A stretch of 64,000 nucleotides of DNA from a virus (taxonomy: Duplodnaviria; Caudoviricetes), in IMG/VR virus record IMGVR_UViG_2974644787_000001, positions 9,624 through 73,623 of that record. One strand, given 5' to 3'. Positions 3,476-38,425 of this stretch are shown here, in pieces. Numbering within the stretch: position 1 is the first letter of the stretch; every line of letters starts with the position of its first letter. The notes under the pieces are model-generated. The model did no database searches, was not told the origin of the DNA, and was given only the letters and a program-made list of their open reading frames with translations. Both the position numbers and the translations under genes were made by a program.

Positions 3476-3513
3476 TTGAATTCTCGCATAGGGGGTGCCC
3501 TTGTCACTTCCCA
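3476..3513 (+). promoter_or_regulatory. putative late promoter copy 1
   Basis: TTGAAT(3476)-N19-TTGTCA(3501)-CTTCCC-ATG(3513). Confidence 0.7.
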
Positions 3514-6500
3514 TGTCAAACTCCGCATCCAGTATTATACTGAACTTTATTAAAGGAACAAAAGGATCAGTCGGCCAAAACGTTAAGTATTATAAACGGG
3601 AATTAAAAGCAAAAGGTGGTTATCGATATTGGTATTCGAAGGAAGAATACGAAAAAGATCATCGGGAGAAAAAACCAAGTAAAGAGCTTGGGATATTAGA
3701 AAGAATTGCAGGCTTTTTCAAAACCGATCCTAGCGAAGCTAAGAAAGTTCCAAAAAAGGAATATGAAACTCACTCAATTTCCGAAAAAGGTATTTCCTAT
3801 CCAGAGTGGACTACTCACTTCGCAAAATATTTTGAACGTAAAGCAGAATATGATGCAAGATTTAACCAAGAGAAAACGGCAACAGCAACTAACGGTAAAA
3901 TTATAGACAAAAATCAAGAAACTGTTACAAAGATTGCAGATCAAAAATCGGAATCCAAATCGATTTATAAAACTTCGATATTCCGGACTTTATTTAATTT
4001 ATACGGAGAAAAAAATGTCATCGAAAGTAACACCGGAAGCACTTTACCAGAAAATCAAAGAGAGGAATCTATCACCTCTGATGCAATACACTCCACAGTG
4101 GATTTACGAGAGCCTGGCAGGGATTTGCGAAGCGGAAAAGAAACAAATCACGATGGAAAACCTTCTCCTTTACTCGGGGACTCTAAACGTGGATCTGGAC
4201 ATGATGTTCTCAGGGGGGAGCGATTAAAGAGTTTTTCTTCCCAAGTAAAATTCATTTCGACTATGCTCGAAGAAAAGGGCATAGATATTGAGAAGGACCT
4301 AAACAAACCAGGTCACATCGGTCTTACTTATCGTAACCTACTTGAGTTTATCGATTCAATGCCTAAGGAAACGAAAGCTCAAATCAAAAAAACATTCTCA
4401 CAAATTGATTTTAAAAATGGAGATATCAAACATTACTTAGATTTTCTCGTAAATGGGATGATCCAATCAAAAGGGTTGGGAGCCAATTCAAATGTTTCTT
4501 TGTCAAAGGAAACTGAAATAACGGACCCAAACGCTCTATCTGAAGCGATGATAGGTAATCAGAATGCAAAAAAAGATTCTCCATCTTTTCAACTCATCCA
4601 GGAATCAGTTTCAGAACCTAAAGGATTCCAGAAAGAAAATAACCTTTTCGGAATAACTCCTCAAACAGAAAGGAAAATTCTTAATTCCAGCTTTCAGCCA
4701 AAACTTCAAGTATCGGAGGTAAAAACCATTCCTGAATTCGTTACAATGGTCAAAGATGCACTTCTGAAAGAAGGTCTTGATCAGAAAGCAGAGGAATGGG
4801 TAGACCAAGCATACAAAAGCGATGCGAAATCATTGAACGATTTACTAAATAAAGCATACCGCTTTGTTCAAATTAGTTCTGACGATTCTAATAAGATCCG
4901 GAAAGGATTAAAATCAATTCCTCACCAATCAAACTTAGAAACTGCTTCTAAAAACGTTGAGATAGTTAAAGAGAAGTTTTCCCAAAAAAAACAATTTGAA
5001 ATCAATTCGAAGTGCAAACAGATTCTAGCATCGACTCCACCAAGCCAAATCACGGAAGAACAAAAAGAAATACTTCGCCAATATGAAGGCTCAGGTGGGC
5101 AGTCAACCAACGACGATGCGGAATCGAATCGTGGAATGCTCTACCAATTTTTCACACCAAGGAAAATGATTTCTAAAGTTCAGGATATCATGGCCAGGTA
5201 TCTAAAGCCAGGTGACTCTGGACTAGAACCTAGTGCTGGTATTGGACGTTTCGCTGAAGGCGAAGGTTCAAAATACAATTGGGATATGCTCGAATACAAT
5301 CCTGATGACAATACAGCCTTTCAAATCGCGCGGATCCTTCATCCCGATGCAAATGTTTCTGACAAAGCTTTCGAAACGTTATTTGTGGATTCAAAAAACA
5401 GATCTGTCGGTGAAAACTACAAAGGTAAGAAATACAAGTTTATCTCAGGGAATCCACCTTACGGAGAAATGTCGGGAAAATTCAAAGCCATCGAAGGGAA
5501 AGGTTGGAATCGTTACGAACACTACTTCATAAATAGAGGTCTTGATACTCTTGAGGAAGGCGGGACAATGTTCTATGTGGTCCCTTCCACTTTCTTACAA
5601 GCTGGTGAAACAACGTGGAAAAAGAAGATATTCGCGAAAGCTGAATTACTGGAAGCATATCGAATGCCTGAAGGTTCATTTGGGAATACTGCAATCGGTG
5701 TTGATGTAATTGTTCTTAGAAAGAATACTACCGGTACTCAGGATAACGCAAACGCTTTCAATGGTAAGTATTTCGAAGAGAATCCGGAACATGTATTTGG
5801 AGATACACTAGAAAGAACCAACAGATTTGGACGGCCAGAAACCTATGTGAAAGGCAAAGCAGATGCTTTCTATAGTATGACTCTCCCTTCCCCCAAGGAA
5901 ATGTCTCAGGCTCAAAAGGATGCAATTTCACTTGGCCTCATGGGAAATGATAATGCCAAAGGGAAACGAAAAGCAGAAATTGCGGAAGGAACAAAGAAGG
6001 TCAATAAAACGGCCACAAAAAAAGAAGAAATCAAGAATACGATCGCTGAGAAGAAAGATCCTACAAAGAAAATTGATACTTATACTCAGGAAGAATTTAA
6101 TACAAAATTCAATAAGAAGTTCACAGAAAAGGACCTAGAACTTGTTCGGAACACTTCACCTACTGGAATTATCGATGAAAAAATTCCATTCGATTCGGAA
6201 AGCATGGCAGTCCTTCCAGGTGGTGCAAGAACACCGCTTTATCTCTATAAGGCTGGCAATATAAAACAGAAATTAATTGAACTCGAAAATTCAAAAGATG
6301 AATTGATCGCGGATTATGGCGAAGAACAATTTGAACGTCAAAGAAAACTTCTGATTTCAAAGGTTCCACCTAAGATCAAAATCGAGGATATTACGTTAAC
6401 TCCAATTGAACCTTTTTCCAAGGGAATGGTTTTCGATAACGGAGACGGAAGTGAATCGACTCTTATTCAGAAATTCAAGGATTGGGTTTTAGGACAAAAA

Positions 6501-9428
6501 GTAGAATTTGGCTATGGTAGAAGGAGGCAGGTTCGGTATGAAGGTGGCATCGATCCAAAACTTTTCAATGGTTACTCGGTAACGCGGGAAGACATTATTG
6601 ATTATGTAGACGGAGAGAGAGTAAGGCGAAGCCAAGATTTTTCCAATGACCTAAGAAAAGAAGAACGTAAAACCCTCGGTAATAAATATTTCAAAGAGTT
6701 TATGGATACCGTGCTAACTCCATCCGAAAAAGCAAAAGTCGAATTGGAGTGGAATGATAGATATAACGTCAATGCAAACATCGATGGATCTGAAATCCCA
6801 GTCCTCTTGGAAGGTATGTCGAAAACTTACAAGGGCGAAATCCAAGACCCTAGAGATTTGCAAATGGAGTTTGTTGCCAGATATATGGCCAAAGGCGTTG
6901 GATGTGCAACACATGAAGTCGGCCTCGGTAAAACTTGGTCCGGGATCATGTCCACTGTCTCGGCAATGCAGGCAGGAAGAACGAAAAAACCGTTGATCGT
7001 TGTCCCTACTTCAGTTTTAGAAAAATGGTATACGGAAGCTAAAGAACGATTCCCGAATGTTCCTTTCCAAATGGTAGGTACTCCGGAGCTAAATAAACTT
7101 ACGGCCGACCAAGGTGGCAAATACACTCCTCCGGAAGGGACAGTTACAATCATGTCTTATAATGCGTTTGAAACCTTTGGATTCTCAGACGAAATTTATA
7201 GCGAGCTCACTTCAGATATCAAAGATAAGATAATAGATCCAAAATCAACAGAAGGGAAAAAAGGAAATTCCAAATCAAGAACGGAAGCTAAAGACCAGGA
7301 GAAAGTAGAAGGGAAAATGTCCCTGGCTTTAAAAGGTACTTCAAATCAACTTAAATTTGATGAAGCGGGTTTTGATCACCTAACAGTTGACGAAGCACAC
7401 AATTTTAATAACATCTTTACGGACCAAGCATCTGGCCGATTCGGGAATAATCAAGGCGCAAGTGAAGATCCACTTACTAAAGGGAAAGAGGATGATGAGA
7501 AGGAATCTGTAAACGAATACGCTGGTATCACTGGTGGAACTCCGTCAAGTAGAGGATGGAAAATGTGGCTCGCATCTCAGTACGTCCAAAAGAGAAATAA
7601 CAACAGAAACGTTTTGCTACTCTCCGCAACTCCATTTACGAATAATCCTCTTCAGGTGTATTCATTGCTTTCTATGATTGCGCGGGAAAAATTGCAATCG
7701 CTTGGGATAAACTCTGTAAGAGATTTCCTTGGTGCGTTTGTAGAATCTCAAGCTGAAAACGTTGTAAAAGGTGATGGAACTATCATTCGTAAAAATGTTG
7801 TGAGAAGCTGGAAAAATGCACCTGCATTCCAGGATCTCATTGCTGAATTTTTCGAATTCAAGTCAGGCGATAAGAATGGAGTCAAAAGACCAAAGCTAAA
7901 ACTAAAAGCTGTCACTATTCCTTTGTCTGAAGAACAAATTCAAATTCGAGACCAATTGGAATCGATGTATGATGCAAGAGATAAGGATGGTAACCCTCTT
8001 CCTGGAGCTCCACTTGTCTCCATTGGGGTTCAGCAGCTAATGGGCGTTTCCCCTGCACTTGTAAAAAAAGGCGAAGGCGCAATTTGGGATACGGAGGAAG
8101 CTACTGGTATCAATCCAAATGGGTCGAGGGATTTCGTAGAGCGATCCCCTAAATTGAAATATATTTGCGATTCAATCGCTGGCTTTTACAAAGCGCATCA
8201 GGATGCAAAACCTGGTGAACCTATCCCTGGACAAATTTTCTTCCTACCGAAAGGCGTAGAGCGAATCAAAGAAGTAAAAGAGTATTTGGTAAGCGTGAAA
8301 GGTCTTCCACCTGAAGCTGTTGAATTTCTTGATGCAAAATCTAAAACGGATCCAGCGAAAGATGTCGATTTGAAAAATAAAGGGATCAAACGGTTTACGG
8401 AGATTACGAATGATTTCAATAACATAAACGGTAAATGTAAAATCATAATCGGAACGGATGTGATTAAAGAAGGTGTAGATCTAAACGGGAATACTGCGGT
8501 TGCATATAACTCTTGTATCGATTGGAACCCTACTACTGAAGTTCAGAAGCGTGGCCGTCACCATAGACCCGGAAACCTGTTGAGTAACGTAATGTGGGTT
8601 GATGTTCTCATGGAAGATTCAATCGATTCCAAACTCTATCAAAAGCAAGGGGAAAAGATTTCAAGGATCAATCAAGTATTTGAGAAAGATGGATCAAAGG
8701 CCATAGACATTTCCGAGATTAATCCAGATGAAATGAAATTGGATTTAATCCGTGACCCTATTAGAAAGGCCCGGTTGTCTTTGTTAGAAGAATCTCAGAA
8801 AATCAATGTAAAGGCTCGCGAAGCACAATCACAAGCACTCATGTATGCCGGACTTTCAAATGATTTTGAATCGCTTACTAAAGAAATCACTGAACTCGAA
8901 GTTGATCTCTTAGATAACGAGAAATACTTAAAAGAGCAAATTGATGAAATGAAAGCAAGTGGTTTGGAAAAGAAAGATTGGGAAAATAAATGGAACTACA
9001 AGTGGGCAAAAGATAAAGTAGCAAAATCTAAAAAAGATATCTCGGAAGCAAAACGTAAACTTGAGAGAGTTGAAAACCAATTAAAATCCAAAGGCGTAAA
9101 TGAGAAGACTGCTATAAAAGAAGCTGAAAAATTCCAAGCAATTGCGGACAAACTTTTTGAGCAAGTGAGAGAGTATAAGGATCCAGAAACTCAAAAGAAA
9201 CTCGCCAAAAAATTTGCAGATGAAATTGCCAAGAGGGATAAAGACAAAATCAAAACTCCTCTCGATCAAATGGTTCAATCCCAGGTAGCAGAAGTCCTTG
9301 AAATGGTAGGAATCAAACAAATTCAGAAATCTCACTCTTCACAATTGAGTGATAGAAGAATCATAACCCAAGCAAAGATCACAATTTTCAATTTCGTAAA
9401 AGGTAAAAAACATGGCTCGACCGTTTAA
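3513..9428 (+). CDS. DarB-like polyvalent protein: N6-adenine DNA methyltransferase + SNF2/SF2 helicase
   Basis: MTase motif I LEPSAGIGRF and motif IV GNPPYG; helicase Walker A HEVGLGKT, Walker B VDEAH, LLSATP and QKRGRHHRPG. Start moved to ATG 3513 after the promoter motif (1971 aa). Confidence 0.85.
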   Translation: MSNSASSIILNFIKGTKGSVGQNVKYYKRELKAKGGYRYWYSKEEYEKDHREKKPSKELGILERIAGFFKTDPSEAKKVPKKEYETHSISEKGISYPEWTTHFAKYFERKAEYDARFNQEKTATATNGKIIDKNQETVTKIADQKSESKSIYKTSIFRTLFNLYGEKNVIESNTGSTLPENQREESITSDAIHSTVDLREPGRDLRSGKETNHDGKPSPLLGDSKRGSGHDVLRGERLKSFSSQVKFISTMLEEKGIDIEKDLNKPGHIGLTYRNLLEFIDSMPKETKAQIKKTFSQIDFKNGDIKHYLDFLVNGMIQSKGLGANSNVSLSKETEITDPNALSEAMIGNQNAKKDSPSFQLIQESVSEPKGFQKENNLFGITPQTERKILNSSFQPKLQVSEVKTIPEFVTMVKDALLKEGLDQKAEEWVDQAYKSDAKSLNDLLNKAYRFVQISSDDSNKIRKGLKSIPHQSNLETASKNVEIVKEKFSQKKQFEINSKCKQILASTPPSQITEEQKEILRQYEGSGGQSTNDDAESNRGMLYQFFTPRKMISKVQDIMARYLKPGDSGLEPSAGIGRFAEGEGSKYNWDMLEYNPDDNTAFQIARILHPDANVSDKAFETLFVDSKNRSVGENYKGKKYKFISGNPPYGEMSGKFKAIEGKGWNRYEHYFINRGLDTLEEGGTMFYVVPSTFLQAGETTWKKKIFAKAELLEAYRMPEGSFGNTAIGVDVIVLRKNTTGTQDNANAFNGKYFEENPEHVFGDTLERTNRFGRPETYVKGKADAFYSMTLPSPKEMSQAQKDAISLGLMGNDNAKGKRKAEIAEGTKKVNKTATKKEEIKNTIAEKKDPTKKIDTYTQEEFNTKFNKKFTEKDLELVRNTSPTGIIDEKIPFDSESMAVLPGGARTPLYLYKAGNIKQKLIELENSKDELIADYGEEQFERQRKLLISKVPPKIKIEDITLTPIEPFSKGMVFDNGDGSESTLIQKFKDWVLGQKVEFGYGRRRQVRYEGGIDPKLFNGYSVTREDIIDYVDGERVRRSQDFSNDLRKEERKTLGNKYFKEFMDTVLTPSEKAKVELEWNDRYNVNANIDGSEIPVLLEGMSKTYKGEIQDPRDLQMEFVARYMAKGVGCATHEVGLGKTWSGIMSTVSAMQAGRTKKPLIVVPTSVLEKWYTEAKERFPNVPFQMVGTPELNKLTADQGGKYTPPEGTVTIMSYNAFETFGFSDEIYSELTSDIKDKIIDPKSTEGKKGNSKSRTEAKDQEKVEGKMSLALKGTSNQLKFDEAGFDHLTVDEAHNFNNIFTDQASGRFGNNQGASEDPLTKGKEDDEKESVNEYAGITGGTPSSRGWKMWLASQYVQKRNNNRNVLLLSATPFTNNPLQVYSLLSMIAREKLQSLGINSVRDFLGAFVESQAENVVKGDGTIIRKNVVRSWKNAPAFQDLIAEFFEFKSGDKNGVKRPKLKLKAVTIPLSEEQIQIRDQLESMYDARDKDGNPLPGAPLVSIGVQQLMGVSPALVKKGEGAIWDTEEATGINPNGSRDFVERSPKLKYICDSIAGFYKAHQDAKPGEPIPGQIFFLPKGVERIKEVKEYLVSVKGLPPEAVEFLDAKSKTDPAKDVDLKNKGIKRFTEITNDFNNINGKCKIIIGTDVIKEGVDLNGNTAVAYNSCIDWNPTTEVQKRGRHHRPGNLLSNVMWVDVLMEDSIDSKLYQKQGEKISRINQVFEKDGSKAIDISEINPDEMKLDLIRDPIRKARLSLLEESQKINVKAREAQSQALMYAGLSNDFESLTKEITELEVDLLDNEKYLKEQIDEMKASGLEKKDWENKWNYKWAKDKVAKSKKDISEAKRKLERVENQLKSKGVNEKTAIKEAEKFQAIADKLFEQVREYKDPETQKKLAKKFADEIAKRDKDKIKTPLDQMVQSQVAEVLEMVGIKQIQKSHSSQLSDRRIITQAKITIFNFVKGKKHGSTV

Positions 9429-10376: not shown

Positions 10377-10705
10377 TACCTAAATCTCACACTGGGATTT
10401 AGGAACGGACAAGACATTGGCACGGTTTCAACCCGTGGTGGGTGGTGGGTGGCGAGTGGTTCCTTTCGCAAGGTGGCGGAAAATACAGACGCGGTGGGCG
10501 CGGAAAGACTCTCCCCCATGGCTCCGAGCAGAAGGCTGACTGAGAGATGTAGGCTGGGTAATCGGGATGAAGGTGTGAACCCTTCCCTTGTGAGTATTGA
10601 AACCATTTAAAAGAATTTACTGAGCCGTAGGCGGTCGGAATTCGAGGGTAGTTACTCGAAGTCCAAGAGTGTTTCAAGGAACTACCTTTGGAACGCGACT
10701 TGCGG
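10377..10705 (+). ncRNA. candidate structured non-coding RNA or long cis-regulatory leader
   Basis: Intergenic, GC-rich (73/120 G+C at 10441-10560 by hand count), G>C skew, several hairpins (CCTAAATCTC/GGGATTTAGG, CACGG/CCGTG, CTCTC/GAGAG, GAAGG/CCTTC, TTCGAG/CTCGAA). Confidence 0.45.
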
Positions 10706-10731
10706 AAATTTTCAAAACAAGGACAAGAATC

Positions 10732-11223
10732 GTGAGCAATAAATTTCAACAAAAAAGAGCCAAACAAGTTATTGGGAAAGAGCGGGTGGAGTTACTCACA
10801 TTTACGCATAGATTCTATCTTCATTACATGAATCCAATTCATCGATGGATAGTTCTTGCTTTGTTTAAATTATCTGTGAAAGCGAATCTTAGAAAGAAGC
10901 CTAGACTCTCTGAATTTTTACAGTTTCTTTCTCAGTTTATCCAAGCTTTTGCGGGATACTCAGTGACTCATGTTTCCAATGTTCCTCCGAAAATAGATAT
11001 CTACTCAATGGGGATAAGGATTGGCCTCGCAAATTTCTTCTGGAAAAGACGATGGCTATTAATGTGTAAAATATTCCTTTTGGGAAAAGATCCAGATTTT
11101 ATCGATTCTATGAAGCGGTTAATTGTCTCAAATTATCGAGAAGGTCTGAATTTGCCTGAGCCAACTGCAAACGAAGTAAATCGGGGTTCGGCTCGACAGG
11201 TTTTGCCCTTGAAGCAGGTGTAA
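10732..11223 (+). CDS. basic hypothetical protein (moron)
   Basis: Part of ORF 10669..11223; GTG at 10732 has an AAGGA SD 8 nt upstream; 163 aa. Confidence 0.5.
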   Translation: MSNKFQQKRAKQVIGKERVELLTFTHRFYLHYMNPIHRWIVLALFKLSVKANLRKKPRLSEFLQFLSQFIQAFAGYSVTHVSNVPPKIDIYSMGIRIGLANFFWKRRWLLMCKIFLLGKDPDFIDSMKRLIVSNYREGLNLPEPTANEVNRGSARQVLPLKQV

Positions 11224-11500
11224 GAATTTTATATATATCACGGTGTCTTGTATAGATACCGTTGATAATACCTATAGTAAGTTTCTTTTGAGCATGTGTT
11301 AGATATATTGATTTAGTTCGGATATCTCTCAGCTTTCTCACTTCTGATAAAAAAATCCTTATCTTCCCTTGAGAAAACAATTCAAGTAATCTATCGATTG
11401 ATGCGTGAATTATAATGAATTCAGCAGTTGGAATATTTGGATCAAAATTCTCTTCTTCATGTACCACAATAATCCGATAATACGAGACATAAAAAAACAT
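11108..11500 (-). CDS. hypothetical protein (uncertain)
   Basis: 130-aa ORF, no clear SD, overlaps the 3' end of the convergent ORF by about 115 nt. Confidence 0.3.
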   Translation of the reverse strand: MFFYVSYYRIIVVHEEENFDPNIPTAEFIIIHASIDRLLELFSQGKIRIFLSEVRKLRDIRTKSIYLTHAQKKLTIGIINGIYTRHRDIYKILTPASRAKPVEPNPDLLRLQLAQANSDLLDNLRQLTAS

Positions 11501-11520: not shown

Positions 11521-11558
11521 TTGCAAATTGCCGGTATTTCTTCCCTTGTCACTCCCTA
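11521..11558 (+). promoter_or_regulatory. putative late promoter copy 2 (leadered transcript of the capsid operon)
   Basis: TTGCAA(11521)-N19-TTGTCA(11546)-CTCCCT-A(11558); the downstream gene has its own GAGGT SD. Confidence 0.65.
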
Positions 11559-11589: not shown

Positions 11590-12378
11590 ATGTTAGCTAA
11601 TATAGATCAGAAAATTAATCAAGCCCAAGGAGAAGCTAGTAAAGAACTAGTTGTCACCTCTATCGAGAAGTCCTCTTTGTCGGTCAAAATTGGATCTAAA
11701 CCTTTCTATGTACGGGAAAGTGATACCGGAAGAAAGTTTTACTGGAATGGACTCAAGTTTATCGATTTAACAAATGATCCTGGTTTGCGTGCTTGCAATA
11801 CTTTGCGAATCGCGACTAATGTCGCTGATGCGGAAACCGTTGTAATTGGTTCAAGAATCTATGAATTTGATCGTGCAGAAAATGGTGTAGTATCTGGGAA
11901 CATTGCTGTAAAAGGACATGCGGATGATACACCTGGGAATGCAATTACTGCGCTTGTAGAAGCTATTAATTCAGATGCAATTTCAGAAGTAACGGCTATT
12001 AAAGTTTCAGCAAATGAAATGTTTGTTTATCACAAAGAACCTGGTAACAAGACTACCGCTACTTCAGAAACACTCATGGGAGCAAACAACGGCTGGGCAT
12101 CTGCAACGTTACTCAATGGTCGTGAACCCGGTAGTCAGTCGTATTCTGTGATTCGGCGCGTTCCTACTGCAGTTGAAGTCGCTTTAGGTGTAATGCATTT
12201 CTATTTCGATTATCCTCCTACTTTGGCTGATATTCGTGTTGTCGTGACTGCGACTCCAGGTGTTCCATTAGCATGGGACGGTGCAGTAACAATTACTGGG
12301 AATAGACTTACAATTGACAACACTGGCTCTGTTGATTGGTCAACAACCAACACGATCGTTCTTACGGTGGCAAAATAG
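11590..12378 (+). CDS. putative virion structural/decoration protein
   Basis: ATG 11590 preceded by GAGGT; beta-rich, T/A/G-rich 262 aa in the head module. Confidence 0.55.
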   Translation: MLANIDQKINQAQGEASKELVVTSIEKSSLSVKIGSKPFYVRESDTGRKFYWNGLKFIDLTNDPGLRACNTLRIATNVADAETVVIGSRIYEFDRAENGVVSGNIAVKGHADDTPGNAITALVEAINSDAISEVTAIKVSANEMFVYHKEPGNKTTATSETLMGANNGWASATLLNGREPGSQSYSVIRRVPTAVEVALGVMHFYFDYPPTLADIRVVVTATPGVPLAWDGAVTITGNRLTIDNTGSVDWSTTNTIVLTVAK

Positions 12379-18947: not shown

Positions 18948-18985
18948 TTGACTTCCATCGAGAACAATTCCCTTGTCCTTCCTCA
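18948..18985 (+). promoter_or_regulatory. putative late promoter copy 3
   Basis: TTGACT(18948)-N19-TTGTCC(18973)-TTCCTC-ATG(18985). Confidence 0.7.
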
Positions 18986-23092: not shown

Positions 23093-23130
23093 TTGATAAT
23101 TTTGGAGTCTAGTTCCCTTGTCACTTCCCA
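23093..23130 (+). promoter_or_regulatory. putative late promoter copy 4
   Basis: TTGATA(23093)-N19-TTGTCA(23118)-CTTCCC-ATG(23130). Confidence 0.7.
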
Positions 23131-25166: not shown

Positions 25167-25169
25167 GCC

Positions 25170-25619: not shown

Positions 25620-25621
25620 AT

Positions 25622-26300: not shown

Positions 26301-26302
26301 CC

Positions 26303-28009: not shown

Positions 28010-28014
28010 GAGTC

Positions 28015-28581
28015 TCACTCTTCTACTGGTTTTATACCACTGAACTCCGTAATTTTCACGGTCATAGTTATGTTACTTCCAATTTCATAGCTGTAAATGA
28101 AGTATTTCATCGGAGGTATTTGAAATATTGCTTTTATTTCGAAATTTTTAGCACGTAAAGAATCTTCTTCAATTTTTTCCACGATATCCGGAAGAGTAAG
28201 CTGTTTTTTATCGCAGTTAATCGAAGTTTGGCTGCAAATTGAGATTTCTCCAACTCCATAAAAATATTTTCTATCTCCATACTCTTTCAATGTTTCTTCA
28301 CTTAAATCCAAGCAAGCTAGTCCAAATCTTTTGTTATCAAGCTGTCCACCATTTATTTTCAAGAATTCATTTGGTATTATTTCTGTCCCGACAGTTAACA
28401 TGGCCTTCAGTTTGGTATGGACTATCTCTTGTAGCTTTTTTGATTTAATTGATTGCCCTCTATCTCTAAGTTCAGCAGCTTCCCTTCCCTGTGCCATCAC
28501 TTCGCAGAATGCTTTGTTGTCTAGGGTCTTTGCAGAAAGAGAGAATGATAAAAAAATAGTCAGTAAAATAAATCTGGTCAT
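28015..28581 (-). CDS. exported hypothetical protein (moron)
   Basis: Signal peptide MTRFILLTIFLSFSLSA; four Cys in the mature part. Confidence 0.7.
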   Translation of the reverse strand: MTRFILLTIFLSFSLSAKTLDNKAFCEVMAQGREAAELRDRGQSIKSKKLQEIVHTKLKAMLTVGTEIIPNEFLKINGGQLDNKRFGLACLDLSEETLKEYGDRKYFYGVGEISICSQTSINCDKKQLTLPDIVEKIEEDSLRAKNFEIKAIFQIPPMKYFIYSYEIGSNITMTVKITEFSGIKPVEE

Positions 28582-28616
28582 TGTTAGATTATTCGATTTA
28601 GGTGGGAAAGGGTCAA
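28581..28616 (-). promoter_or_regulatory. sigma70-type promoter, leaderless
   Basis: TTGACC(28616)-N17-AATAAT-CTAACA-ATG(28581). Confidence 0.55.
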
Positions 28617-28656
28617 TCCCATTCTATAGTCCAATCCGAATCGGAATCCGTTAAGA

Positions 28657-28935
28657 TTATTTTTTGTGGCAAGAAAGCGCACTTCCGGAAGCGCCGTAGC
28701 AAATTGAAGTCGAATTCTCACATCGAACTACACCGCCCATTGCGAGCATCCCACCTTCACTTTTTGGATTGGTCAACTCTGAAAGCATTTTTACCATTGG
28801 TGAGTCGTCACCTGCAATAATTCTAATCTGCTTACAGACCAAATCATTCCCTAAAGTCTCTTTCGTTTTTTCGTCTTTACTGAAAATGGATGAAGTAATC
28901 GTTAAAAATAAAAGTAGGAATAGTAAGTTTTTCAT
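28657..28935 (-). CDS. small exported Cys-rich protein (moron)
   Basis: Signal peptide MKNLLFLLLFLTITSSIFS; four Cys. Confidence 0.7.
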   Translation of the reverse strand: MKNLLFLLLFLTITSSIFSKDEKTKETLGNDLVCKQIRIIAGDDSPMVKMLSELTNPKSEGGMLAMGGVVRCENSTSICYGASGSALSCHKK

Positions 28936-29111
28936 GAGCTAACTATGGGATAGTTGATGCCTGGGTCAAAACGAAAAAGATTAAAGTCAAAACATATCGG
29001 AAAATTTGCGAAATGAGATGCCAATACCGAACAAGGCCAGCAGTTCCGAAACAAAGCTTTAAGTTACGGTCACTTGTTGGTTTTAATATAACGTTAATAG
29101 AAATTGCTCGA

Positions 29112-30257: not shown

Positions 30258-30259
30258 AA

Positions 30260-30790
30260 TTAAAATTCACCAATTTGAAGTTTTTCTACTAGATTCGAAA
30301 GTTCTTCTGCTGTGAGTAAGTTTTTACGTGGGATATGAAGAGTTATCTTACTATCTGTTGGTTTTCTTTCTTTATCTGTTATATCATACCAGTAGCAAGC
30401 TCGGTTAAGAATTAAGCGATCTTCGCTTACATTTAACCAACTTTTTTCATCTTCAGGTAAGCAAAATGCGATTAGAATTTGTCGGAGACTTCTATTATTA
30501 TTTAATGTAACAAATTTGTTATAAGCTTTGGTAGTAATAGTAAAGGTAATAAATTCGTCTTTGAAAACATAATTTGAAGATGCTTTTAGCTGAAAGCAAA
30601 GAGGATATCCAATTTCAGTTATTTCATTTTTTTGATTTTCATTCAATTCAACAAAAACTTTTGAAAATCTACCATCAATTCCATAATCAAAATTTGCATC
30701 ATTTATGCGAATTAATAGCCCAGCTTTTCCTGCGATGGCCTGTACATAGGATATACTTAGGCTTTCTTTTCTATGGTTTTCAGTAATCAT
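30260..30790 (-). CDS. DUF4365-like PD-(D/E)XK nuclease-fold protein
   Basis: KESLSISYVQAIA...DYGIDG...FQLKAS...ILIAFCLP...YW pattern. Confidence 0.7.
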   Translation of the reverse strand: MITENHRKESLSISYVQAIAGKAGLLIRINDANFDYGIDGRFSKVFVELNENQKNEITEIGYPLCFQLKASSNYVFKDEFITFTITTKAYNKFVTLNNNRSLRQILIAFCLPEDEKSWLNVSEDRLILNRACYWYDITDKERKPTDSKITLHIPRKNLLTAEELSNLVEKLQIGEF

Positions 30791-31011
30791 TTCTTGAAAG
30801 CCTCACAGATGCATTTTTTATATAAGACTGAAAAAATCATTAAAATTTTTTAAATGGACTTTCTAGTGTTATCGTAAAGTCAAAGTATATTTTTTGATTA
30901 GATTTTTTAAAAATGCACATAACTCATATTACTAACACAAAACACCTTTTTGAAGAGAAAGGCCAAACTCTAGAGATTTTTTCTTTTCCAAACAATTACT
31001 ATAACGATTAT

Positions 31012-33795: not shown

Positions 33796-33806
33796 CGGTA
33801 TGCAAA

Positions 33807-33834
33807 ATTAGAATATAGGGAACCAGTGAGTCAA
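33807..33834 (-). promoter_or_regulatory. possible sigma70-type promoter of the cargo island
   Basis: TTGACT(33834)-N16-TCTAAT, 11 nt before ATG 33795. Confidence 0.35.
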
Positions 33835-33878
33835 CCAATTTGAATAATGCTGATGCTCTCTTTATTGATTCTTTTCCG

Positions 33879-33916
33879 TTGACAAAATCAAAATAACAAG
33901 AATTTGTCCCTTCCCA
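33879..33916 (+). promoter_or_regulatory. putative late promoter copy 5
   Basis: TTGACA(33879)-N19-TTGTCC(33904)-CTTCCC-ATG(33916). Confidence 0.7.
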
Positions 33917-34605
33917 TGCCAGAATTCCCATCATATGGAAGACAATCGAAAGTTGCGTTTGCGCCACCTGGACTTGCGCAACCAAGTATTATGAATGGTT
34001 TGGAACTCGGTGAAATTGATTCTCTCAGCGGTGGACTCATGAAATACCGAGCCGACATTCGACTTTTTAATGGACAGATTCTGAAGAAAGTGCGTCTCCC
34101 AGGTCCTTACATCGGTCTTTTAGGGTTTCTTTCGGGATTCAAATTTGGATACAGAGAGGGACAGATGGTCCTTGTTGGATTTCTCCAAAATCGTAGAGAC
34201 AATCCTATCGTCATTCAGGTGTATCCTTTTGCAGCACAGACAAAAGGAAAAAGCTCGCTAATCAAACATTCTTCACAATTCGATTCTGAAGAAACATCTG
34301 TAGGCCACGAATCTGGGCATAGAACAAAATGGGACAAAGACAAAGTTCTCTTTAAAGATAAATTAGATACGACAAGAGTCCAAATCGATCACACGATACC
34401 ACCAATCCTTAACTCTCTGGAAAAAGCTGCGCAAGGCGAAACTTTGAAATCAATTCTAGAAGAAATCTGTGACGAAATCACCAAACTCACTGTTCAGTGT
34501 ACTGCCCCCGGGACTTCGAGCTTACCCCCAGATAATGCAGCCAAGTTTCTTGTGATTAAAGGAAAATTAAACACTATCCTTTCCGAGGTTTTAAAACACT
34601 ACTAA
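33916..34605 (+). CDS. baseplate central spike (gpV/gp45-like)
   Basis: OB-fold-like N-terminus (EGQMVLVGFLQNRRDNPIV), HESGH strand repeats, C-terminal TAPGTSSLPPDNAAKF typical of these spikes. Confidence 0.65.
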   Translation: MPEFPSYGRQSKVAFAPPGLAQPSIMNGLELGEIDSLSGGLMKYRADIRLFNGQILKKVRLPGPYIGLLGFLSGFKFGYREGQMVLVGFLQNRRDNPIVIQVYPFAAQTKGKSSLIKHSSQFDSEETSVGHESGHRTKWDKDKVLFKDKLDTTRVQIDHTIPPILNSLEKAAQGETLKSILEEICDEITKLTVQCTAPGTSSLPPDNAAKFLVIKGKLNTILSEVLKHY

Positions 34606-34982
34606 TGAATTTTTGGGAACACTTCGATATCGATAACGATCATTCACATAACAAAACTTTTTTGTTTGAGAAAGCAAAATCGAAAATTATGCATTCATGC
34701 GAATTTTGCTCAGATCATTGGGGCACGGTAGTGAGGCTTTTTAAAAGCCAAAGTGATTTTGAGAATTCAGACTTCTATGGCGGGGAAGATGTTGTAAAGG
34801 GGGATCCAAGAGCAAAAATCGCTGTGTGGCCAGGAAAAAATAACGTAGGTAGAGATAAAAACTCATATTGGTTATGCGCCCCTGTTCATCCCCTTTGTGG
34901 ATGCGAAATTGAAGTTGAGGAAACTTTACATGAATCCATAGAGGATCTAGAAGACTGGTATTCAACTTTAGAATGGGATTAG
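34605..34982 (+). CDS. MuF-like protein C-terminal (Cys/His) part
   Basis: HSCEFC...VWPGKNNVGR...WLCAPVHPLCGC matches the MuF C-terminal C-xx-C...HP-x-C-x-C signature. Confidence 0.55.
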   Translation: MNFWEHFDIDNDHSHNKTFLFEKAKSKIMHSCEFCSDHWGTVVRLFKSQSDFENSDFYGGEDVVKGDPRAKIAVWPGKNNVGRDKNSYWLCAPVHPLCGCEIEVEETLHESIEDLEDWYSTLEWD

Positions 34983-36487
34983 TCCATTTCCCAAGCAGCA
35001 TTTTCAATTCGCTTCCCCCACTTAACCATTGTTTCCTGAGTCGCAGTACCTGAACCAGGTCGCCAGACAACACGAACTCCAGTTACATAGAAATTAGGAT
35101 GATATTGTTTGATTTCTTTGTGCAAAGAATCGGAATATCCATCATCGTCCGTAAGTCGCATGATTTGTCCTTTGCATAATCCACGAAAGTAAAAACCAGA
35201 AAAAGAACCCGTGAATATTCTTTCGCCTGTCCCAAATGCTTCGTATAATTTCTCTTGAATTTTGAGGAGGGATGCAATATTACTGGATTGTGCACCTGGA
35301 GCTTGCAGTTCTGGAGGCATCCCTACTCCATCCATTGTAATTTGCATAACTCTTTGTCCAAATTTCGCGAGTAAAGATGGATTATATGTTACTGGATTTA
35401 ATGCGAGTCCAGTGATGGTATCTTGGATCCCGAGATTCACATGAACGCCGGAAAAAATATCCTCTTGGGATTCGGTGAGATCAAAACTGTTGAATTGAGA
35501 TTCAGGGACCTCCGAAGAGATCCCGAAATAAGGAAGGAAGAAATCGTCTTCTAACTTATCAAAGGGAGTTTTCCGAAAAACTAACCTTGCAAGTGGTAGA
35601 TCTGGCGTAAAGTCATCAGATCTAAACGAGCCAAAGCCATTTGATTTTTTTTCGATTGGTGAAGTGGTTTCGCCAGCGTAAAGAGAACAATCTTGGTCGT
35701 AATGAAAGAAAAGTTCATATAGCGGAGGTTTGGCGATTGATGCCATAAGTGACCAAATCGAAAGTGAATTCCCGAAACTCTGATTATTGATCCATTGAAC
35801 TGTATGGATAAAACCAATAGTGTATGATAGTTTATCAAATTTGTAATCGACGAGATCCCAAAAAATCTCACCACCATAGTTTCCATTGGAAAGCAGTGTT
35901 CTTATTGCAGCATCCGAAAGTGATTCTATAATTCCGCTGGGTGTTTTAGATTCAGAAATCACTTCCGAAATTATATTTAGTGCAGCTTGAATTTTAGAGA
36001 TAGGCAAATTGGAAACACTTTCCGCTGGTTGACCTACGATATTCGGGCCAGATTTGTCAAAATCGATAAATAAGGTTTGAGACTGGATACAGTCCTCCAA
36101 TCCTCCCCCAGAGACCACATAGCTTTGCTCTCCAGATACATTGCTCACATGATTGGCTGTTTTAATTCTTCCTACAAACTTAGTTTTTTTTGATTCGGTA
36201 ACTACAATGAGCTCACCTGTTCGCAAAACTTCACGAATACGAACTTTCCCTGCATAGGTAGTAATAATATTCCCAGTTGCACCTTTTGCGAGAGTCAGAG
36301 TGAAACTTCCATTATCTATGGAATCTACATAAGTAAGCGATTCAATGAATTCTCCGGGAATTTCTATTGGAGAACGCATGGCAGCGATTTCCCCTGGAGA
36401 AAGCCTTTTTGATAATCGACTTATGATATTAGGCACGAATCCAAATAGAAAAACCTGAAAATCTGGGTTTACGGCATTAACTTTCAC
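34979..36487 (-). CDS. baseplate hub protein (gp27/gp44-like)
   Basis: 502 aa; DSIDNGSFTLTL...KFVGRIK...GGGLED and LLAKFGQR patterns; flanked by baseplate genes. Confidence 0.6.
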   Translation of the reverse strand: MKVNAVNPDFQVFLFGFVPNIISRLSKRLSPGEIAAMRSPIEIPGEFIESLTYVDSIDNGSFTLTLAKGATGNIITTYAGKVRIREVLRTGELIVVTESKKTKFVGRIKTANHVSNVSGEQSYVVSGGGLEDCIQSQTLFIDFDKSGPNIVGQPAESVSNLPISKIQAALNIISEVISESKTPSGIIESLSDAAIRTLLSNGNYGGEIFWDLVDYKFDKLSYTIGFIHTVQWINNQSFGNSLSIWSLMASIAKPPLYELFFHYDQDCSLYAGETTSPIEKKSNGFGSFRSDDFTPDLPLARLVFRKTPFDKLEDDFFLPYFGISSEVPESQFNSFDLTESQEDIFSGVHVNLGIQDTITGLALNPVTYNPSLLAKFGQRVMQITMDGVGMPPELQAPGAQSSNIASLLKIQEKLYEAFGTGERIFTGSFSGFYFRGLCKGQIMRLTDDDGYSDSLHKEIKQYHPNFYVTGVRVVWRPGSGTATQETMVKWGKRIENAAWEMD

Positions 36488-38328
36488 TCAATTAAGCCTC
36501 TAACTCTTCTTAACTTAAATGATTTGAAATCGCCAATTGGATTCACCTTCACAATGTATGAGATTGCATCGGAATCTATTGAGAATTCCACAATATCGGC
36601 AGTTTGGACACCCAAGTCAGATTGTATATCGTCGAGAATTTTTTTCGGTATAACCAAATTGAGAAAATCGTCAGGCACAGATCCTGGTTTGGGAAGAGCT
36701 CCGATATCAGGATGCATTGGGATCTGACCAGGAAGAATTCGCATTTTATCAAGAAGCCCATCAACTAAACAGTCGATCCCTTTTGACGTGCCTATATCTC
36801 CCCCTTTGGTCTCGATATCTCGATCGGCTTTTAATGCTATGTCCTCACCAAACAAGAATTCTTCGAGTAATTCCTGAGTTTTTGAATTGGATAAATTGTT
36901 AAAAAGAAATCTTTCAAGATAAACTCCCGTATCCCTTTGGTTATATGTCACACTTGTTGGAACCTTAATTGACATTCCAATTATTTCTTCATTTGATTTT
37001 CCAATGAGTCTCGGGTCATTTTGGATGAGTAAATCTATTCTATCTGGAGAACCAAAGTATTTCCTCGCAAGAATTTCAAGTGTCTCACCCGGTTTTACTT
37101 TAATGTATGAGGAATTCTGAGCCAAATTTTCATTATTTGCGAGCATTAAGATGGTAGAAATAGTCCCAAGTGCAATCTGAATATTTAGAACAGATAAAAC
37201 AGCGGGATCTACAGCTGCTTCAATTTCGAAATCACTTACTGCTCCAGATGTAAGAACATTATCTAAAACTGAATTCGGAATTTCTTGCGCGTCAATCTCG
37301 GATTGTGAACTTGTTGTGCTTACTGGCACGATCGGTATATCAAGAGCTCCAATAGATGGGACGGTTTGATTCGGGAATAGAGATTGCATGAGTAATTCTT
37401 GAAACTGATTTGTCTTTTTCTTTAGTGGCCCACCTGCTTTGGAGATTGCGCGAAGTGATTCTTTGTTTGTCGCTTCGAAAGATTTTAGAGCATCTTTCAT
37501 TCCTTCTGCTAAATTGGCAATATCGGAATATAGTTCAGTAATCCCTTTCAGGTAACTAAGCGGCCCAGATAAATCAGAAAGAAATTCTTCAAAAGTAACC
37601 AATACACCTGAAACCATTTGTTTAAGGTCTGGGAGTGGGGCTCGCCGATTCTTACCTCGGCCAGACTCATCTTTTACTCCGATGAAATTTAGATTCCAAT
37701 ACCAAGTATGGGGATCTTCTTTTGATTGTGATATTTTGAATCCATTCTTATCGAAAGCAACTTCCCAATGCGAATCACGGTCATAGTCATGAAAAATCAT
37801 CTGGATCTCTTCCGAGTTAAAAGATTCCGTACCAAATGCAGATGCCACACTATATATATCAAAAGCATTTGGATAAAATGAACTGAAAGTCGGAACTCTA
37901 GATTTGAATTTTTCTTTTTCGCGAGCTTCCTGCATAAGGTATACCAAATCAAAGAAGTCTAAATAACCTGCCTTTTTAACGGGATTTAAATCTTCCAATT
38001 CTCCAAGAAGTGCATTCCCTACGCCTGCCAATCCTGGCATCGGTTTCCTAACTGGTTTCCCCGTATAATGCGCGTATATTTCTCCAGATAAGTTTATTTG
38101 GGAAATTCCATTCCCATTATCGACTACTTGCGCACCATTGTATGTCGGTGTCACAGAAACATTATAAGTGAATGTATGATCCATTCGGGAAAGGCCAAGT
38201 AGAAAGAAATACTCTCCCAAAGAGATATTAGGTCCGTATTTGACACGGGATAGAAATTCTACTGAATAAGCACCTGTGGCAGAATAACCACCAGTGTTAT
38301 TTGTTACGCTCGTCGCAAGAGATCCCAT
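36484..38328 (-). CDS. fused tube-initiator + LysM + gp25-like baseplate wedge protein
   Basis: LysM YIKVKPGETLEILARKYFGSPDRIDLLIQND; gp25-like GDIGTSKGIDCL...PGQIPMHPDIG; N-terminal initiator-like region. Confidence 0.65.
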   Translation of the reverse strand: MGSLATSVTNNTGGYSATGAYSVEFLSRVKYGPNISLGEYFFLLGLSRMDHTFTYNVSVTPTYNGAQVVDNGNGISQINLSGEIYAHYTGKPVRKPMPGLAGVGNALLGELEDLNPVKKAGYLDFFDLVYLMQEAREKEKFKSRVPTFSSFYPNAFDIYSVASAFGTESFNSEEIQMIFHDYDRDSHWEVAFDKNGFKISQSKEDPHTWYWNLNFIGVKDESGRGKNRRAPLPDLKQMVSGVLVTFEEFLSDLSGPLSYLKGITELYSDIANLAEGMKDALKSFEATNKESLRAISKAGGPLKKKTNQFQELLMQSLFPNQTVPSIGALDIPIVPVSTTSSQSEIDAQEIPNSVLDNVLTSGAVSDFEIEAAVDPAVLSVLNIQIALGTISTILMLANNENLAQNSSYIKVKPGETLEILARKYFGSPDRIDLLIQNDPRLIGKSNEEIIGMSIKVPTSVTYNQRDTGVYLERFLFNNLSNSKTQELLEEFLFGEDIALKADRDIETKGGDIGTSKGIDCLVDGLLDKMRILPGQIPMHPDIGALPKPGSVPDDFLNLVIPKKILDDIQSDLGVQTADIVEFSIDSDAISYIVKVNPIGDFKSFKLRRVRGLIE

Positions 38329-38367
38329 TGGGGAATGGACAAAGCATCCATTCCCTCAGAAAATCAA
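38328..38367 (-). promoter_or_regulatory. putative late promoter copy 6 (minus strand)
   Basis: TTGATT(38367)-N19-TTGTCC(38342)-ATTCCC-CA-ATG(38328). Confidence 0.6.
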
Positions 38368-38387
38368 CTCATTTACATCAAAAATGC

Positions 38388-38425
38388 TTGCAAAATGAGT
38401 CCATTACTTCCCTTGTCACTTCCCA
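38388..38425 (+). promoter_or_regulatory. putative late promoter copy 7
   Basis: TTGCAA(38388)-N19-TTGTCA(38413)-CTTCCC-ATG(38425). Confidence 0.7.

What the first reader, a model, noticed from the sequence alone, without database searches (positions are those of the whole stretch)
3476..38425. Seven-copy non-canonical late promoter TTGnnn-N19-TTGTC(A/C)-N6-A driving leaderless structural mRNAs
Seen: TTGTC(A/C) occurs at 3501, 11546, 18973, 23118, 33904, 38413 (+) and 38342 (-). In all seven a TTG hexamer (TTGAAT, TTGCAA, TTGACT, TTGATA, TTGACA, TTGCAA, TTGATT) starts exactly 25 nt upstream. In five copies the A of ATG is exactly 12 nt after the first T of TTGTC, with a pyrimidine spacer (mostly CTTCCC) and no SD. 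One copy has ATG at +14. The copy at 11546 has A at +12 and feeds an SD-led gene. Two ordinary leaderless promoters here (AATAAT-N6-ATG at 28581, TATAAT-N6-ATG at 63917) have the same geometry, so TTGTCA occupies the -12..-7 slot. Inference: a -35-like box, a 19-bp spacer and an altered -10 read by a phage-encoded sigma or activator. I know no described promoter class with this consensus, and no sigma gene is recognisable in the window.
Basis: partly seen in the sequence, partly recalled or inferred. Interest (0 to 1): 0.8.

Follow-up and report, generated by a model that had tools for sequence, protein, structure and literature searches.

The report
Private late promoters of leptophage LE1
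A Leptospira phage, almost certainly LE1, puts the same two-block DNA signal in front of each packaging, head and tail operon; it looks like a phage-lineage-only promoter that starts messages at the start codon, and what reads it is unknown.

Summary
All seven sites exist at the stated places. The composite TTG-N22-TTGTCM occurs 8 times in the window against 1.74 expected; 0 of 100 shuffles reach 8. The whole 73,623-bp genome has 10 canonical sites plus one variant. Ten lie 34-42 nt before a start codon, against 0.03 in simulations.

The window is 87% of a myophage that matches LE1 of Leptospira biflexa in size and GC. The signal heads every late unit: terminase, portal/head, DarB-like giant protein, connector genes, ParB-domain giant protein, sheath/tube, and both baseplate operons.

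It is kept at orthologous places in relatives down to 54% sheath identity, while the spacers drift. The core is W4-N3-TTGmnw-N19-T(T/C)GTC. Distant LE1-like prophages (34-38% identity) carry a TCCGAT box instead. Leptospiraceae chromosomes are not enriched, and phage LE4 of the same host lacks it.

No sigma domain was found in 9 related phage records. The reader of the signal stays open: a phage factor or a host alternative sigma. One co-inherited small protein is a weak lead. The scan had already noted this class, on this genome and on another.

The parts
3476..3513 (+). Late promoter copy TTGAAT-N19-TTGTCA-CTTCCC-A(TG); heads the 1971-aa DarB-like methylase/helicase gene (3513-9428)
   Evidence: kept in G001/G002/G049 and before the DarB homologue of G118/G119/G120
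11521..11558 (+). Late promoter copy TTGCAA-N19-TTGTCA-CTCCCT-A. It is the only copy with a leader of about 32 nt and an SD (GAGG) before the likely start at 11590 of a 262-aa gene
   Evidence: the leader-plus-SD layout is kept in G003, G118, G119 and G120
18948..18985 (+). Late promoter copy TTGACT-N19-TTGTCC-TTCCTC-ATG; heads the 859-aa ParB-domain protein gene
   Evidence: kept in G001/G002/G049
23093..23130 (+). Late promoter copy TTGATA-N19-TTGTCA-CTTCCC-ATG; heads an 83-aa gene followed by tail sheath (23382-25166) and the tube-region genes
   Evidence: orthologous copies in G003 (40828), G118 (6999), G120 (28845) and G119 (49815)
33879..33916 (+). Late promoter copy TTGACA-N19-TTGTCC-CTTCCC-ATG; heads a two-gene unit (229 aa and 125 aa)
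   Evidence: orthologous copies in G118 (74163), G120 (23236) and G119 (43752)
38388..38425 (+). Late promoter copy TTGCAA-N19-TTGTCA-CTTCCC-ATG; heads the baseplate J operon (38425-45039)
   Evidence: the divergent pair is kept in G003 as TCGTCC/TCGTCT and in G118/G119/G120
38328..38367 (-). Late promoter copy TTGATT-N19-TTGTCC-ATTCCCCA-ATG, divergent partner of the previous one; heads the 614-aa and 502-aa baseplate/tail genes on the minus strand
62084..62122 (-). Variant copy TTGTAA-N19-TCGTCC-ATTCTTC-GTG before a 51-aa ORF (61929-62084), convergent with the Cro-like operon; role unknown
   Evidence: kept in G001 and G002
36029..36059 (+). Eighth match to TTG-N22-TTGTCM, probably chance: no pyrimidine run, no start codon, antisense inside the 502-aa gene
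   Evidence: 1.74 matches expected by chance
11108..11500 (-). Small gene on the opposite strand (130-aa ORF; relatives 111-120 aa), transcribed divergently from the 11521 promoter. This lineage-only protein family is inherited together with the promoter class and is a weak lead for the specificity factor
   Evidence: no Pfam or PDB match
28579..28616 (-). Ordinary sigma-70-type leaderless promoter TTGACC-17-AATAAT-N6-ATG before a 188-aa gene; comparison case for the geometry
63915..63929 (-). TATAAT-N6-ATG before the ImmA/IrrE peptidase gene; comparison case for the geometry

Best explanation
These are the late promoters of phage LE1 and its nearer relatives, a promoter class private to this phage lineage.

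Anatomy, numbered from the predicted start: an A/T tract at about -44 to -41, TTG(A/C)n(A/T) at -37 to -32, a 19-bp spacer of free sequence, T(T/C)GTC at -12 to -8, and a pyrimidine-rich stretch at -6 to -1 (CTYCCC in the LE1 subgroup).

Transcription is predicted to start on the A of the ATG, or 1-3 nt before it, giving leaderless mRNAs for terminase, portal/head, the packaged giant proteins, sheath/tube and baseplate. One unit (11546) keeps a leader of about 32 nt with an SD.

The second box lacks the A(-11) and T(-7) that a primary sigma needs, so the host housekeeping holoenzyme alone should not open these promoters. That would keep the late genes silent in the plasmid-prophage state.

I infer that they are read by host core RNA polymerase carrying a dedicated specificity factor. 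My split is: a phage-encoded factor too divergent to recognise by sequence, about 0.45; a host alternative sigma that the phage switches on, about 0.35.

Shown: the sites, their excess over chance, their position and strand relative to genes, the lack of SD, conservation in relatives, absence from host chromosomes, and the absence of recognisable sigma genes.
For: Excess over chance: 8 matches against 1.74 expected, 0 of 100 shuffles; 10 start-proximal sites against a mean of 0.027 in 300 simulations.

Position: all 11 sites point at the gene that follows and together head the late units. The 9 sites with ATG at N6-N8 have no SD, while most internal genes do.

Footprint: in 30 distinct sites from four genomes, TTG and T-G-T-C are invariant (30 of 30). 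The Y position is T in 25 and C in 5. Positions -7 to -4 before TTG are A or T in 30 of 30. Spacer columns carry at most about 0.5 bit.

Conservation: orthologous sites are kept in G001/G002/G049 (94-97% sheath identity), in G003 (60%, with TCGTC), and in G118/G119/G120 (54-55%, with TTGTCC and a free -6..-1). Of 35 related viral loci, 9 of the 10 with sheath identity of 54% or more hold 2-5 start-proximal copies in 22 kb or less. The tenth is G003, which has 5 sites genome-wide. The 25 loci at 34-38% hold 0-1.

Private to the lineage: the leaderless form gives 18 hits in 114 Leptospiraceae genomes. Twelve lie on two LE1-like contigs, 6 are scattered, and the reversed control gives 12 hits. 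LE4, which infects the same host, has no copy before a gene.

Leaderless mRNAs are common in Leptospira (PMC5243855, passages read).
Against: No transcript end has been mapped. No RNA run holds the sequence, and the laid runs were contigs, probably DNA.

No sigma domain was found: Sigma70_r2 matches 0 of 9 phage records at E<=1, and Sigma70_r4_2 gives only weak helix-turn-helix hits below the cut-off.

The LE1 group, G003 and the 55% group share the promoter class but no gene of the early region is present in all of them by tblastn. That fits a phage-encoded reader poorly, unless it sits in the structural module or has diverged beyond BLAST. G003 is only 87% complete.

Genes that co-occur with the class (the opposite-strand small protein and several module genes) are equally explained by shared descent of the module.

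A conserved block running up to +1 could also be an operator.
Confidence: 0.75

Rival explanations
1. Same promoters, but read by a host alternative sigma factor (ECF-like or one of the uncharacterised larger ones). The phage only activates it, for example by removing an anti-sigma factor.
For: The GTC/CGTC-type second box resembles ECF -10 elements. L. interrogans sigma-X has TG(A/G)CAC-N15/16-TCGTT (PMC7708080, passages read).

No phage sigma was found, and no early gene is shared by all subgroups that share the class.

The host of G002 has 9 genes with a sigma region 2, among them three of 290-353 aa whose specificity I do not know.

One conserved host intergenic site, TTGACT-N19-TTGTCC-CTCCC, lies about 38 nt before lpxC-ptsI in at least 10 Leptospiraceae genomes of about 4 Mb, with a variable spacer.

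Without the ATG requirement, chromosomal hits outnumber the reversed control by about 142 to 68 (my hand tally of the table).
Against: The leaderless form is not enriched on chromosomes: 6 scattered hits against 12 control hits in 114 genomes.

None of the 9 host sigma genes has the motif within 300 nt upstream, although ECF sigmas usually autoregulate.

The first box lacks the AAC of ECF -35 elements, and the spacer is 18-19 bp against the 14-17 quoted in PMC7708080.

LE4, on the same host, does not use the signal.

The twofold excess is partly the same orthologous coding sequence counted in many genomes.
Confidence: 0.3
2. The reader is the small lineage-only protein encoded on the opposite strand at 11108-11500. 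It would be a new sigma-like or sigma-remodelling factor, reinforced by its own late promoter.
For: tblastn finds it in 6 of 6 genomes with the TYGTC class (37-50% identity) and in 0 of 2 without it (KF114876, LE4).

It always sits divergent to the one SD-led late unit. In 3 of 6 genomes (G003, G118, G120) it has its own copy of the promoter with N6-ATG geometry.

The family has only 4 clear clusters (E <= 2e-27) among 1.84 billion representatives, plus two weak partial matches to very long proteins, 6 in all at E<=0.001. It has no Pfam or PDB match.
Against: The same phyletic pattern holds for several neighbouring module genes: the 262-aa, 184-aa, 137-aa, 83-aa and 149-aa proteins, DarB and terL.

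In LE1 and G001 its upstream region has no TYGTC box, and in G119 the box is degenerate.

At 111-130 aa it is too short for a two-domain sigma. No DNA-binding or sigma feature was shown.

A gene driven by the late promoter cannot start the late phase by itself.
Confidence: 0.12
3. Not a promoter: a repressor operator, a packaging or replication signal, or a translation signal at the 5' end of the cistrons.
For: The conserved block reaches the start codon. The CTTCCC run is unusually well kept in the LE1 subgroup. No start site is mapped.
Against: The CTYCCC run is not kept in the 55% subgroup, while both boxes and their 25-nt register are.

The two boxes are not a dyad, and the spacers carry no information.

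The sites occur only at the heads of co-directional gene runs and in both orientations at the divergent baseplate junction.

A translation signal would not need a TTG box and an A/T tract 25-32 nt upstream.
Confidence: 0.07

Closest known systems
ECF (group 4) sigma promoters: L. interrogans sigma-X, TG(A/G)CAC-N15/16-TCGTT (PMC7708080, passages read); E. coli sigma-E with a GTC-containing -10 (recalled, not checked here)
   Same: Two short boxes. The second is built on (C/T)GT(C) rather than TATAAT. The first box, TGACA/TGCAA, looks like the sigma-X -35. The signal serves a small dedicated regulon.
   Different: No AAC in the first box. The spacer is 18-19 bp, against the 14-17 quoted there. 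No ECF sigma gene is found in the phages, and none of 9 host sigma genes carries the motif. The start falls on the start codon.
Phage late or middle promoters read by phage-made sigma-type factors (T4 gp55, SPO1 gp28 and gp33/34, phiEco32 gp36). All recalled; only search listings seen
   Same: The same non-canonical signal is repeated before each late unit of one phage lineage and is absent from the host chromosome.
   Different: No homologue of any sigma domain was detected. The LE1 signal keeps a sigma-70-like TTG box and an A/T tract upstream, which the T4 late promoters (a -10 box only, as recalled) lack.
TCCGAT-box late signals of the distant LE1-like plasmid-prophages of pathogenic and intermediate Leptospira (earlier scan note e1-5891872)
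   Same: Same place and apparent role before the orthologous virion genes of related myophages.
   Different: Unrelated sequence. The two classes are nearly exclusive: the 25 loci at 34-38% sheath identity have 0-1 TYGTC sites, which suggests that late-promoter specificity was swapped within one phage family.
Ordinary leaderless sigma-70-type promoters of Leptospira (PMC5243855) and of this phage (28581, 63917)
   Same: The geometry: second box, 6 nt, then ATG, with no SD.
   Different: The second box is TYGTCM instead of TATAAT-like, and the spacer is 19 instead of 17.
MerR-type promoters with a 19-bp spacer (recalled)
   Same: An over-long 19-bp distance between the two boxes.
   Different: MerR sites have a dyad in the spacer. 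Here the spacer columns carry at most about 0.5 bit and differ between orthologues, and the -10 is not TATAAT-like.

Membership tests
Primary sigma-70 (group 1) promoter | -35 box close to TTGACA | tested here: met
   TTG in 30 of 30 distinct sites; fourth base A (19) or C (11); A/T tract upstream
Primary sigma-70 (group 1) promoter | -10 box close to TATAAT, with A at the second and T at the sixth position | tested here: not met
   The second box is T-Y-G-T-C-M in 30 of 30 sites, with no A at position 2. Read with a 17-bp spacer the hexamer would be (C/T)YTYGT, also without that A. The consensus scan finds no sigma-70 match at the sites.
Primary sigma-70 (group 1) promoter | Spacer of 17 +/- 1 bp | tested here: not met
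   19 bp between the hexamers in 30 of 30 sites
ECF (group 4) sigma promoter | -10 element with CGT/GTC | tested here: met
   G-T-C invariant; preceded by C in 5 and by T in 25 of 30 sites
ECF (group 4) sigma promoter | -35 element with AAC, and a spacer of 14-17 bp (as quoted in PMC7708080) | tested here: not met
   The first box is TTGmnw without AAC. The distance is 19 bp, or 18 if the box is read as TGmnwn.
ECF (group 4) sigma promoter | A cognate sigma gene, usually autoregulated from the same promoter type | tested here: not met
   Sigma70_r2 matches 0 of 9 phage records at E<=1. None of the 9 sigma genes of host genome G053 has the motif within 300 nt upstream.
Sigma-54 promoter | GG and GC elements 10 bp apart at -24/-12 | tested here: not met
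   By eye on the aligned sites there is no conserved GG 10-11 nt before the second box. The consensus itself is recalled.
Promoter of a phage-encoded RNA polymerase | An RNA polymerase gene in the phage | tested here: inconclusive
   All ORFs of 500 aa or more that I scanned have other assignments: DarB-like, MmeI, ParB-domain, cargo protein, SbcC-like, helicase, sheath, terminase, portal.
Phage late promoter class (operational definition) | Repeated before the late operons, conserved at orthologous sites in relatives, absent from the host chromosome | tested here: met
Phage late promoter class (operational definition) | Mapped 5' ends and dependence on phage development | not testable with these tools
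   No RNA holder is listed. The laid runs are contigs.

The most novel reading that the evidence does not exclude
LE1-type leptophages encode a specificity factor with no detectable similarity to any sigma family. The co-inherited 111-130-aa opposite-strand protein at 11108-11500 is one candidate. This factor would redirect Leptospira RNA polymerase to TTG-N19-TYGTC promoters and make leaderless late mRNAs. Within the same phage family the system was exchanged for a second private system, the TCCGAT box.
Probability: 0.2. Interest if true: 0.7.

Novelty: new variant of a known kind. Interest (0 to 1): 0.45.

Why it matters
Promoters of Leptospira are poorly defined. The only genome-wide start-site map found no general -35/-10 consensus apart from sigma-54 (PMC5243855, abstract and passages).

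Here is a sharply defined, strongly conserved promoter class of about 45 bp with a predicted start on the ATG, in the one temperate phage of Leptospira whose replication origin has served for a shuttle vector (PMC6078989, passage read).

If confirmed, it gives three things:
- a tight, phage-dependent expression switch for L. biflexa genetics;
- a route to a possibly new RNA polymerase specificity factor, by pull-down with the motif or by proteomics of polymerase from infected cells;
- a natural example of related phages swapping late-promoter specificity (TYGTC against TCCGAT).

It is not a surprise in kind, because many phages have private late promoters.

Tried and rejected
Searches for a sigma or activator
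- Sigma70_r2, six-frame, in G000-G003 and G118-G122: 0 of 9 records.
- Sigma70_r4_2: only sub-threshold helix-turn-helix hits in a Cro-like protein and a terminase-small-like protein.
- Pfam and PHROG scans covered 50 LE1 ORFs and found no regulator beyond CI/Cro-like HTH proteins and ImmA.
- The 262-aa protein (11590-12378) and the 184-aa protein (10669-11223) gave nothing against PDB or the Atlas.
- The 136-aa protein (49540-49950) shares only a short stretch with a G003 protein that carries an NPPF-type methylase motif.
- The Cys-rich 102-aa protein (45481-45789) also occurs in LE4, which lacks the motif.
- The 174-aa protein (52503-53027), which to my eye has a winged-helix-like stretch, has no G003 homologue.
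- Relaxed blastp of LE1 against G003 gave noise only.
- For the opposite-strand protein family, the profile search of PDB, Pfam and the Atlas gave nothing.

Expression data: no RNA holder is listed. The four laid wastewater runs are contigs, probably DNA, and say nothing about starts.

Terminator and sigma-70 consensus scans are at chance level and mark no operon ends. Rfam found 0 families in the window.

Literature: none of the listings or passages I read described this signal. Searches: LE1 + Leptospira + promoter, leptophage, TTGTCA + late promoter, phage-encoded sigma factor / late genes / ECF. The LE3/LE4 paper has 0 occurrences of 'promoter'. The LE1 genome paper (Bourhy 2005, PMC1151745) is not held, so I cannot say what it reports. 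Supplementary Table 7 of PMC5243855 and Figure S11 of PMC7708080 may bear on the sigma consensus comparison.

Those calls serve only as a mis-spaced control (22 hits in 114 genomes, at most 2 per genome, none clustered; reversed control 9). One search is the correct test.

The first genome-contig scan with the single sheath protein found nothing. The alignment query found three prophages at 37% identity.
Full report
What the DNA is. The window is bases 9624-73623 of a single 73,623-bp virus record with 38.5% G+C. It encodes a myophage: tail sheath, baseplate J, portal and large terminase, plus ParA/ParB/Rep plasmid-maintenance genes and a CI/Cro/ImmA region. By sheath protein, its nearest records in the phage collection are the 'LE1-like' Leptospira prophages, at only 32-36% identity. 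The published LE1 genome of Leptospira biflexa is given as 73,622 bp and 38.5% G+C (PMC6078989, passages). I therefore take the record to be LE1 itself. Its own record seems to be withheld from the collections, so this rests on size, composition and kinship.

The observation. The composite TTG-N22-TTGTCM occurs 8 times in the window, against 1.74 +/- 1.26 in dinucleotide shuffles; none of 100 shuffles reaches 8. TTGTCM alone is not enriched: 56 matches against 81 expected. The eighth match (36029-36059) has no pyrimidine run or start codon and lies antisense in a gene, so I take it as the expected chance match.

Outside the window the genome has three more copies. They lie before the small/large terminase pair (genome 5218; ATG one base further), before the portal gene (8167; TTGTCG) and before a ParB-like gene (2757; TTGTCT with ATG only 3 nt later). 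A TCGTCC variant lies at window 62084-62122 (-). With the core loosened to T(T/C)GTC the genome has 18 matches, against 6.2 +/- 2.5 in 300 Markov simulations. Ten of them lie 34-42 nt before a start codon on the same strand, against 0.027 on average and never more than 1. I had set the starts of the motif genes to the first ATG after the box, which slightly favours this count.

What the sites head. Together they precede the run of packaging, head, cargo, connector, tail and baseplate genes:
- small and large terminase;
- portal to the 384-aa gene ending at 3462;
- the 1971-aa DarB-like methylase/helicase and the 316-aa protein conserved in all the relatives;
- the 262-aa protein and the genes that follow, to the 885-aa cargo protein;
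- the 859-aa ParB-domain protein and two further genes;
- the 83-aa protein, sheath and tube-region genes;
- a two-gene unit;
- the two divergent baseplate operons.

Every site points at the gene behind it. The nine sites with ATG 6-8 nt after the second box have no Shine-Dalgarno sequence, whereas most internal genes have one. The unit at 11546 is the exception, with a leader of about 32 nt and GAGG before the likely start at 11590. That exception is itself conserved in all subgroups.

Relatives. Searches with baseplate J and with a sheath alignment brought in 35 related viral loci and three Leptospira genome loci. Three tiers share the signal:
- G001, G002 (identical to contig C11 of genome G053) and contig C10 of genome G049, at 94-97% sheath identity;
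- G003, at 60%;
- a group at 54-55%, namely G118-G122 and two further loci (L121 and L146).

Orthologous sites are kept in all tiers. Spacers change freely even between 95%-identical phages. G003 uses TCGTC throughout. The 55% group uses TTGTCC with a free -6..-1 stretch. From 30 distinct sites the consensus is W4-N3-TTG-M-n-W-N17-(c)(y)-T-Y-G-T-C-M-C-T-Y-C-C-C-A. TTG and T.GTC are invariant, and the spacer columns carry at most about 0.5 bit. The 25 loci at 34-38% identity have 0-1 such sites. They are rich in a (T/A)CCGAT(A/T/G) box, which sits before the virion genes of KF114876. Late-promoter specificity therefore seems to have been swapped within the family.

Is it a host signal? The leaderless form, TTG-N22-TYGTC-N-YTYYYY-ATG, gives 18 hits in 114 Leptospiraceae genomes (about 480 Mb). 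Twelve lie on the two LE1-like contigs, 6 are scattered singly, and the reversed control gives 12. Two earlier calls used a pattern one base too short by my mistake; they act as a mis-spaced control, with 22 scattered hits. Without the ATG requirement, chromosomal hits outnumber the control by about 142 to 68 on my hand tally, and 7 + 8 hits lie on the LE1-like contigs. Much of that excess is the same orthologous sequence counted in many genomes.

One recurrent hit is intergenic: TTGACT-N19-TTGTCC-CTCCC, about 38 nt before lpxC-ptsI, in at least 10 Leptospiraceae genomes of about 4 Mb, with a variable spacer. It is the only hint of a host promoter of this kind. None of the 9 sigma genes of host genome G053 has the motif within 300 nt upstream. 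Phage LE4, which infects the same L. biflexa strain, has no copy before any gene; it repeats a different box, GTTTACAAAAAATAAAC.

Who reads it? The second box has no A at the position of -11, so a primary sigma is unlikely to melt it. The GTC core recalls ECF promoters. The L. interrogans sigma-X consensus TG(A/G)CAC-N15/16-TCGTT (PMC7708080) is the nearest published relative. However, the first box lacks AAC and the spacing is 2-4 bp longer than the 14-17 bp quoted there.

No sigma region 2 is detectable in any of nine phage records. Region 4 models give only weak helix-turn-helix hits. Scans of 50 LE1 proteins gave no regulator beyond CI/Cro-like proteins and ImmA. Comparing gene content is sobering: G003 shares only the structural module with LE1, and no early-region gene is common to all the genomes that share the promoter class. 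Three readings remain. The factor may lie in or near the structural module. It may have diverged beyond BLAST, or sit in the missing 13% of G003. Or it may be a host protein.

One lead emerged: a small gene on the opposite strand (window 11108-11500; relatives 111-120 aa), transcribed divergently from the 11521 promoter. It is present in 6 of 6 genomes with the class and in neither KF114876 nor LE4. It has its own copy of the promoter in G003, G118 and G120, but not in LE1 or G001, and G119 has a degenerate one. The family has only four clear clusters (E <= 2e-27) among 1.84 billion representatives, besides two weak partial matches to very long proteins, and no Pfam or PDB match. Several neighbouring genes show the same phyletic pattern, so this stays a lead.

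Verdict. The reading as a private late-promoter class that yields leaderless mRNAs is well supported by position, statistics and conservation, but it lacks any transcript evidence. The claim that a phage-encoded sigma or activator reads it is open. I put a phage factor at about 0.45, a host alternative sigma at about 0.35, and the rest on other mechanisms or a non-promoter role. None of my four literature searches turned up a description of the signal; the LE1 genome paper could not be read. The scan itself had already noted the class on this genome (e1-5906829) and on another LE1-like genome (e1-5355181). In kind it is a new variant of a familiar thing, the lineage-specific phage late promoter, and of moderate interest.

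Noticed in passing
L036 (KF114876.1 19326-61122), e.g. before genes at 4394, 11354, 13811, 19033, 22528, 24952, 31116, 31940, 33482; also L124-L149: The distant LE1-like prophages (sheath identity 34-38%) carry a different shared box, (T/A)CCGAT(A/T/G), about 20-35 nt before their virion genes, and 0-1 TYGTC sites. Late-promoter specificity seems to have been swapped within one phage family. An earlier scan note (e1-5891872) describes the same box.
   Followed up: partly
window 11108-11500 (-); L043:8223-8558 (-); L150:14745-15104; L155:17068-17427; L160:18055-18414: A small protein family (111-130 aa) encoded on the opposite strand inside the head/connector module. It is confined to the phages that have the TYGTC promoter class: 4 clear clusters (E <= 2e-27) among 1.84 billion representatives, and no Pfam or PDB match. 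In LE1 and G001 the ORF has a 15-residue N-terminal extension that relatives lack, so its true start is unclear.
   Followed up: partly
window 11521-11526: The first box of the 11546 promoter is the palindrome TTGCAA. Read on the other strand it lies 19 nt before AATGTT and the ATG of the opposite-strand ORF, so one hexamer may serve two divergent units.
   Followed up: no
L100:1512-1547 and L102:1500-1535 (Leptospiraceae chromosomes G048, G065; at least 10 genomes): A conserved intergenic TTGACT-N19-TTGTCC-CTCCC lies about 38 nt before lpxC and a PTS enzyme I gene. The spacer is variable and the boxes are conserved. It is the only host site that resembles the phage signal.
   Followed up: partly
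L104 (phage LE4, MF974397.1) before genes at 7140, 33338, 33795, 35921, 46771: LE4 repeats its own box, GTTTACAAAAAATAAAC, about 25-35 nt before SD-led genes. It is probably an early or middle promoter or an operator, and it is unrelated to the LE1 signal.
   Followed up: no
window 45481-45789 (-), L104:41637-41921, G003 5599-5907: A 102-aa protein with a CxxC...LTPSH...CxKCH pattern (to my eye HNH/NinG-like; that label is recalled, not tested) is shared by LE1, LE4 and, weakly, G003. LE1 proteins at 46592-48345 also have LE4 homologues at 46-55% identity.
   Followed up: partly
window 28015-33795 (-): A minus-strand island interrupts the late genes. It holds an MmeI-type restriction-modification enzyme (927 aa), a DUF4365 protein, a 381-aa protein and a putative secreted 188-aa protein with an ordinary leaderless promoter. 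It is present in G001 and absent from G003 and the 55% group, so it looks like a defence/moron insertion.
   Followed up: no
window 18900-38600: Contigs of several wastewater metagenome runs cover parts of this stretch at 85-99% likeness, so LE1-like phages occur in wastewater.
   Followed up: no
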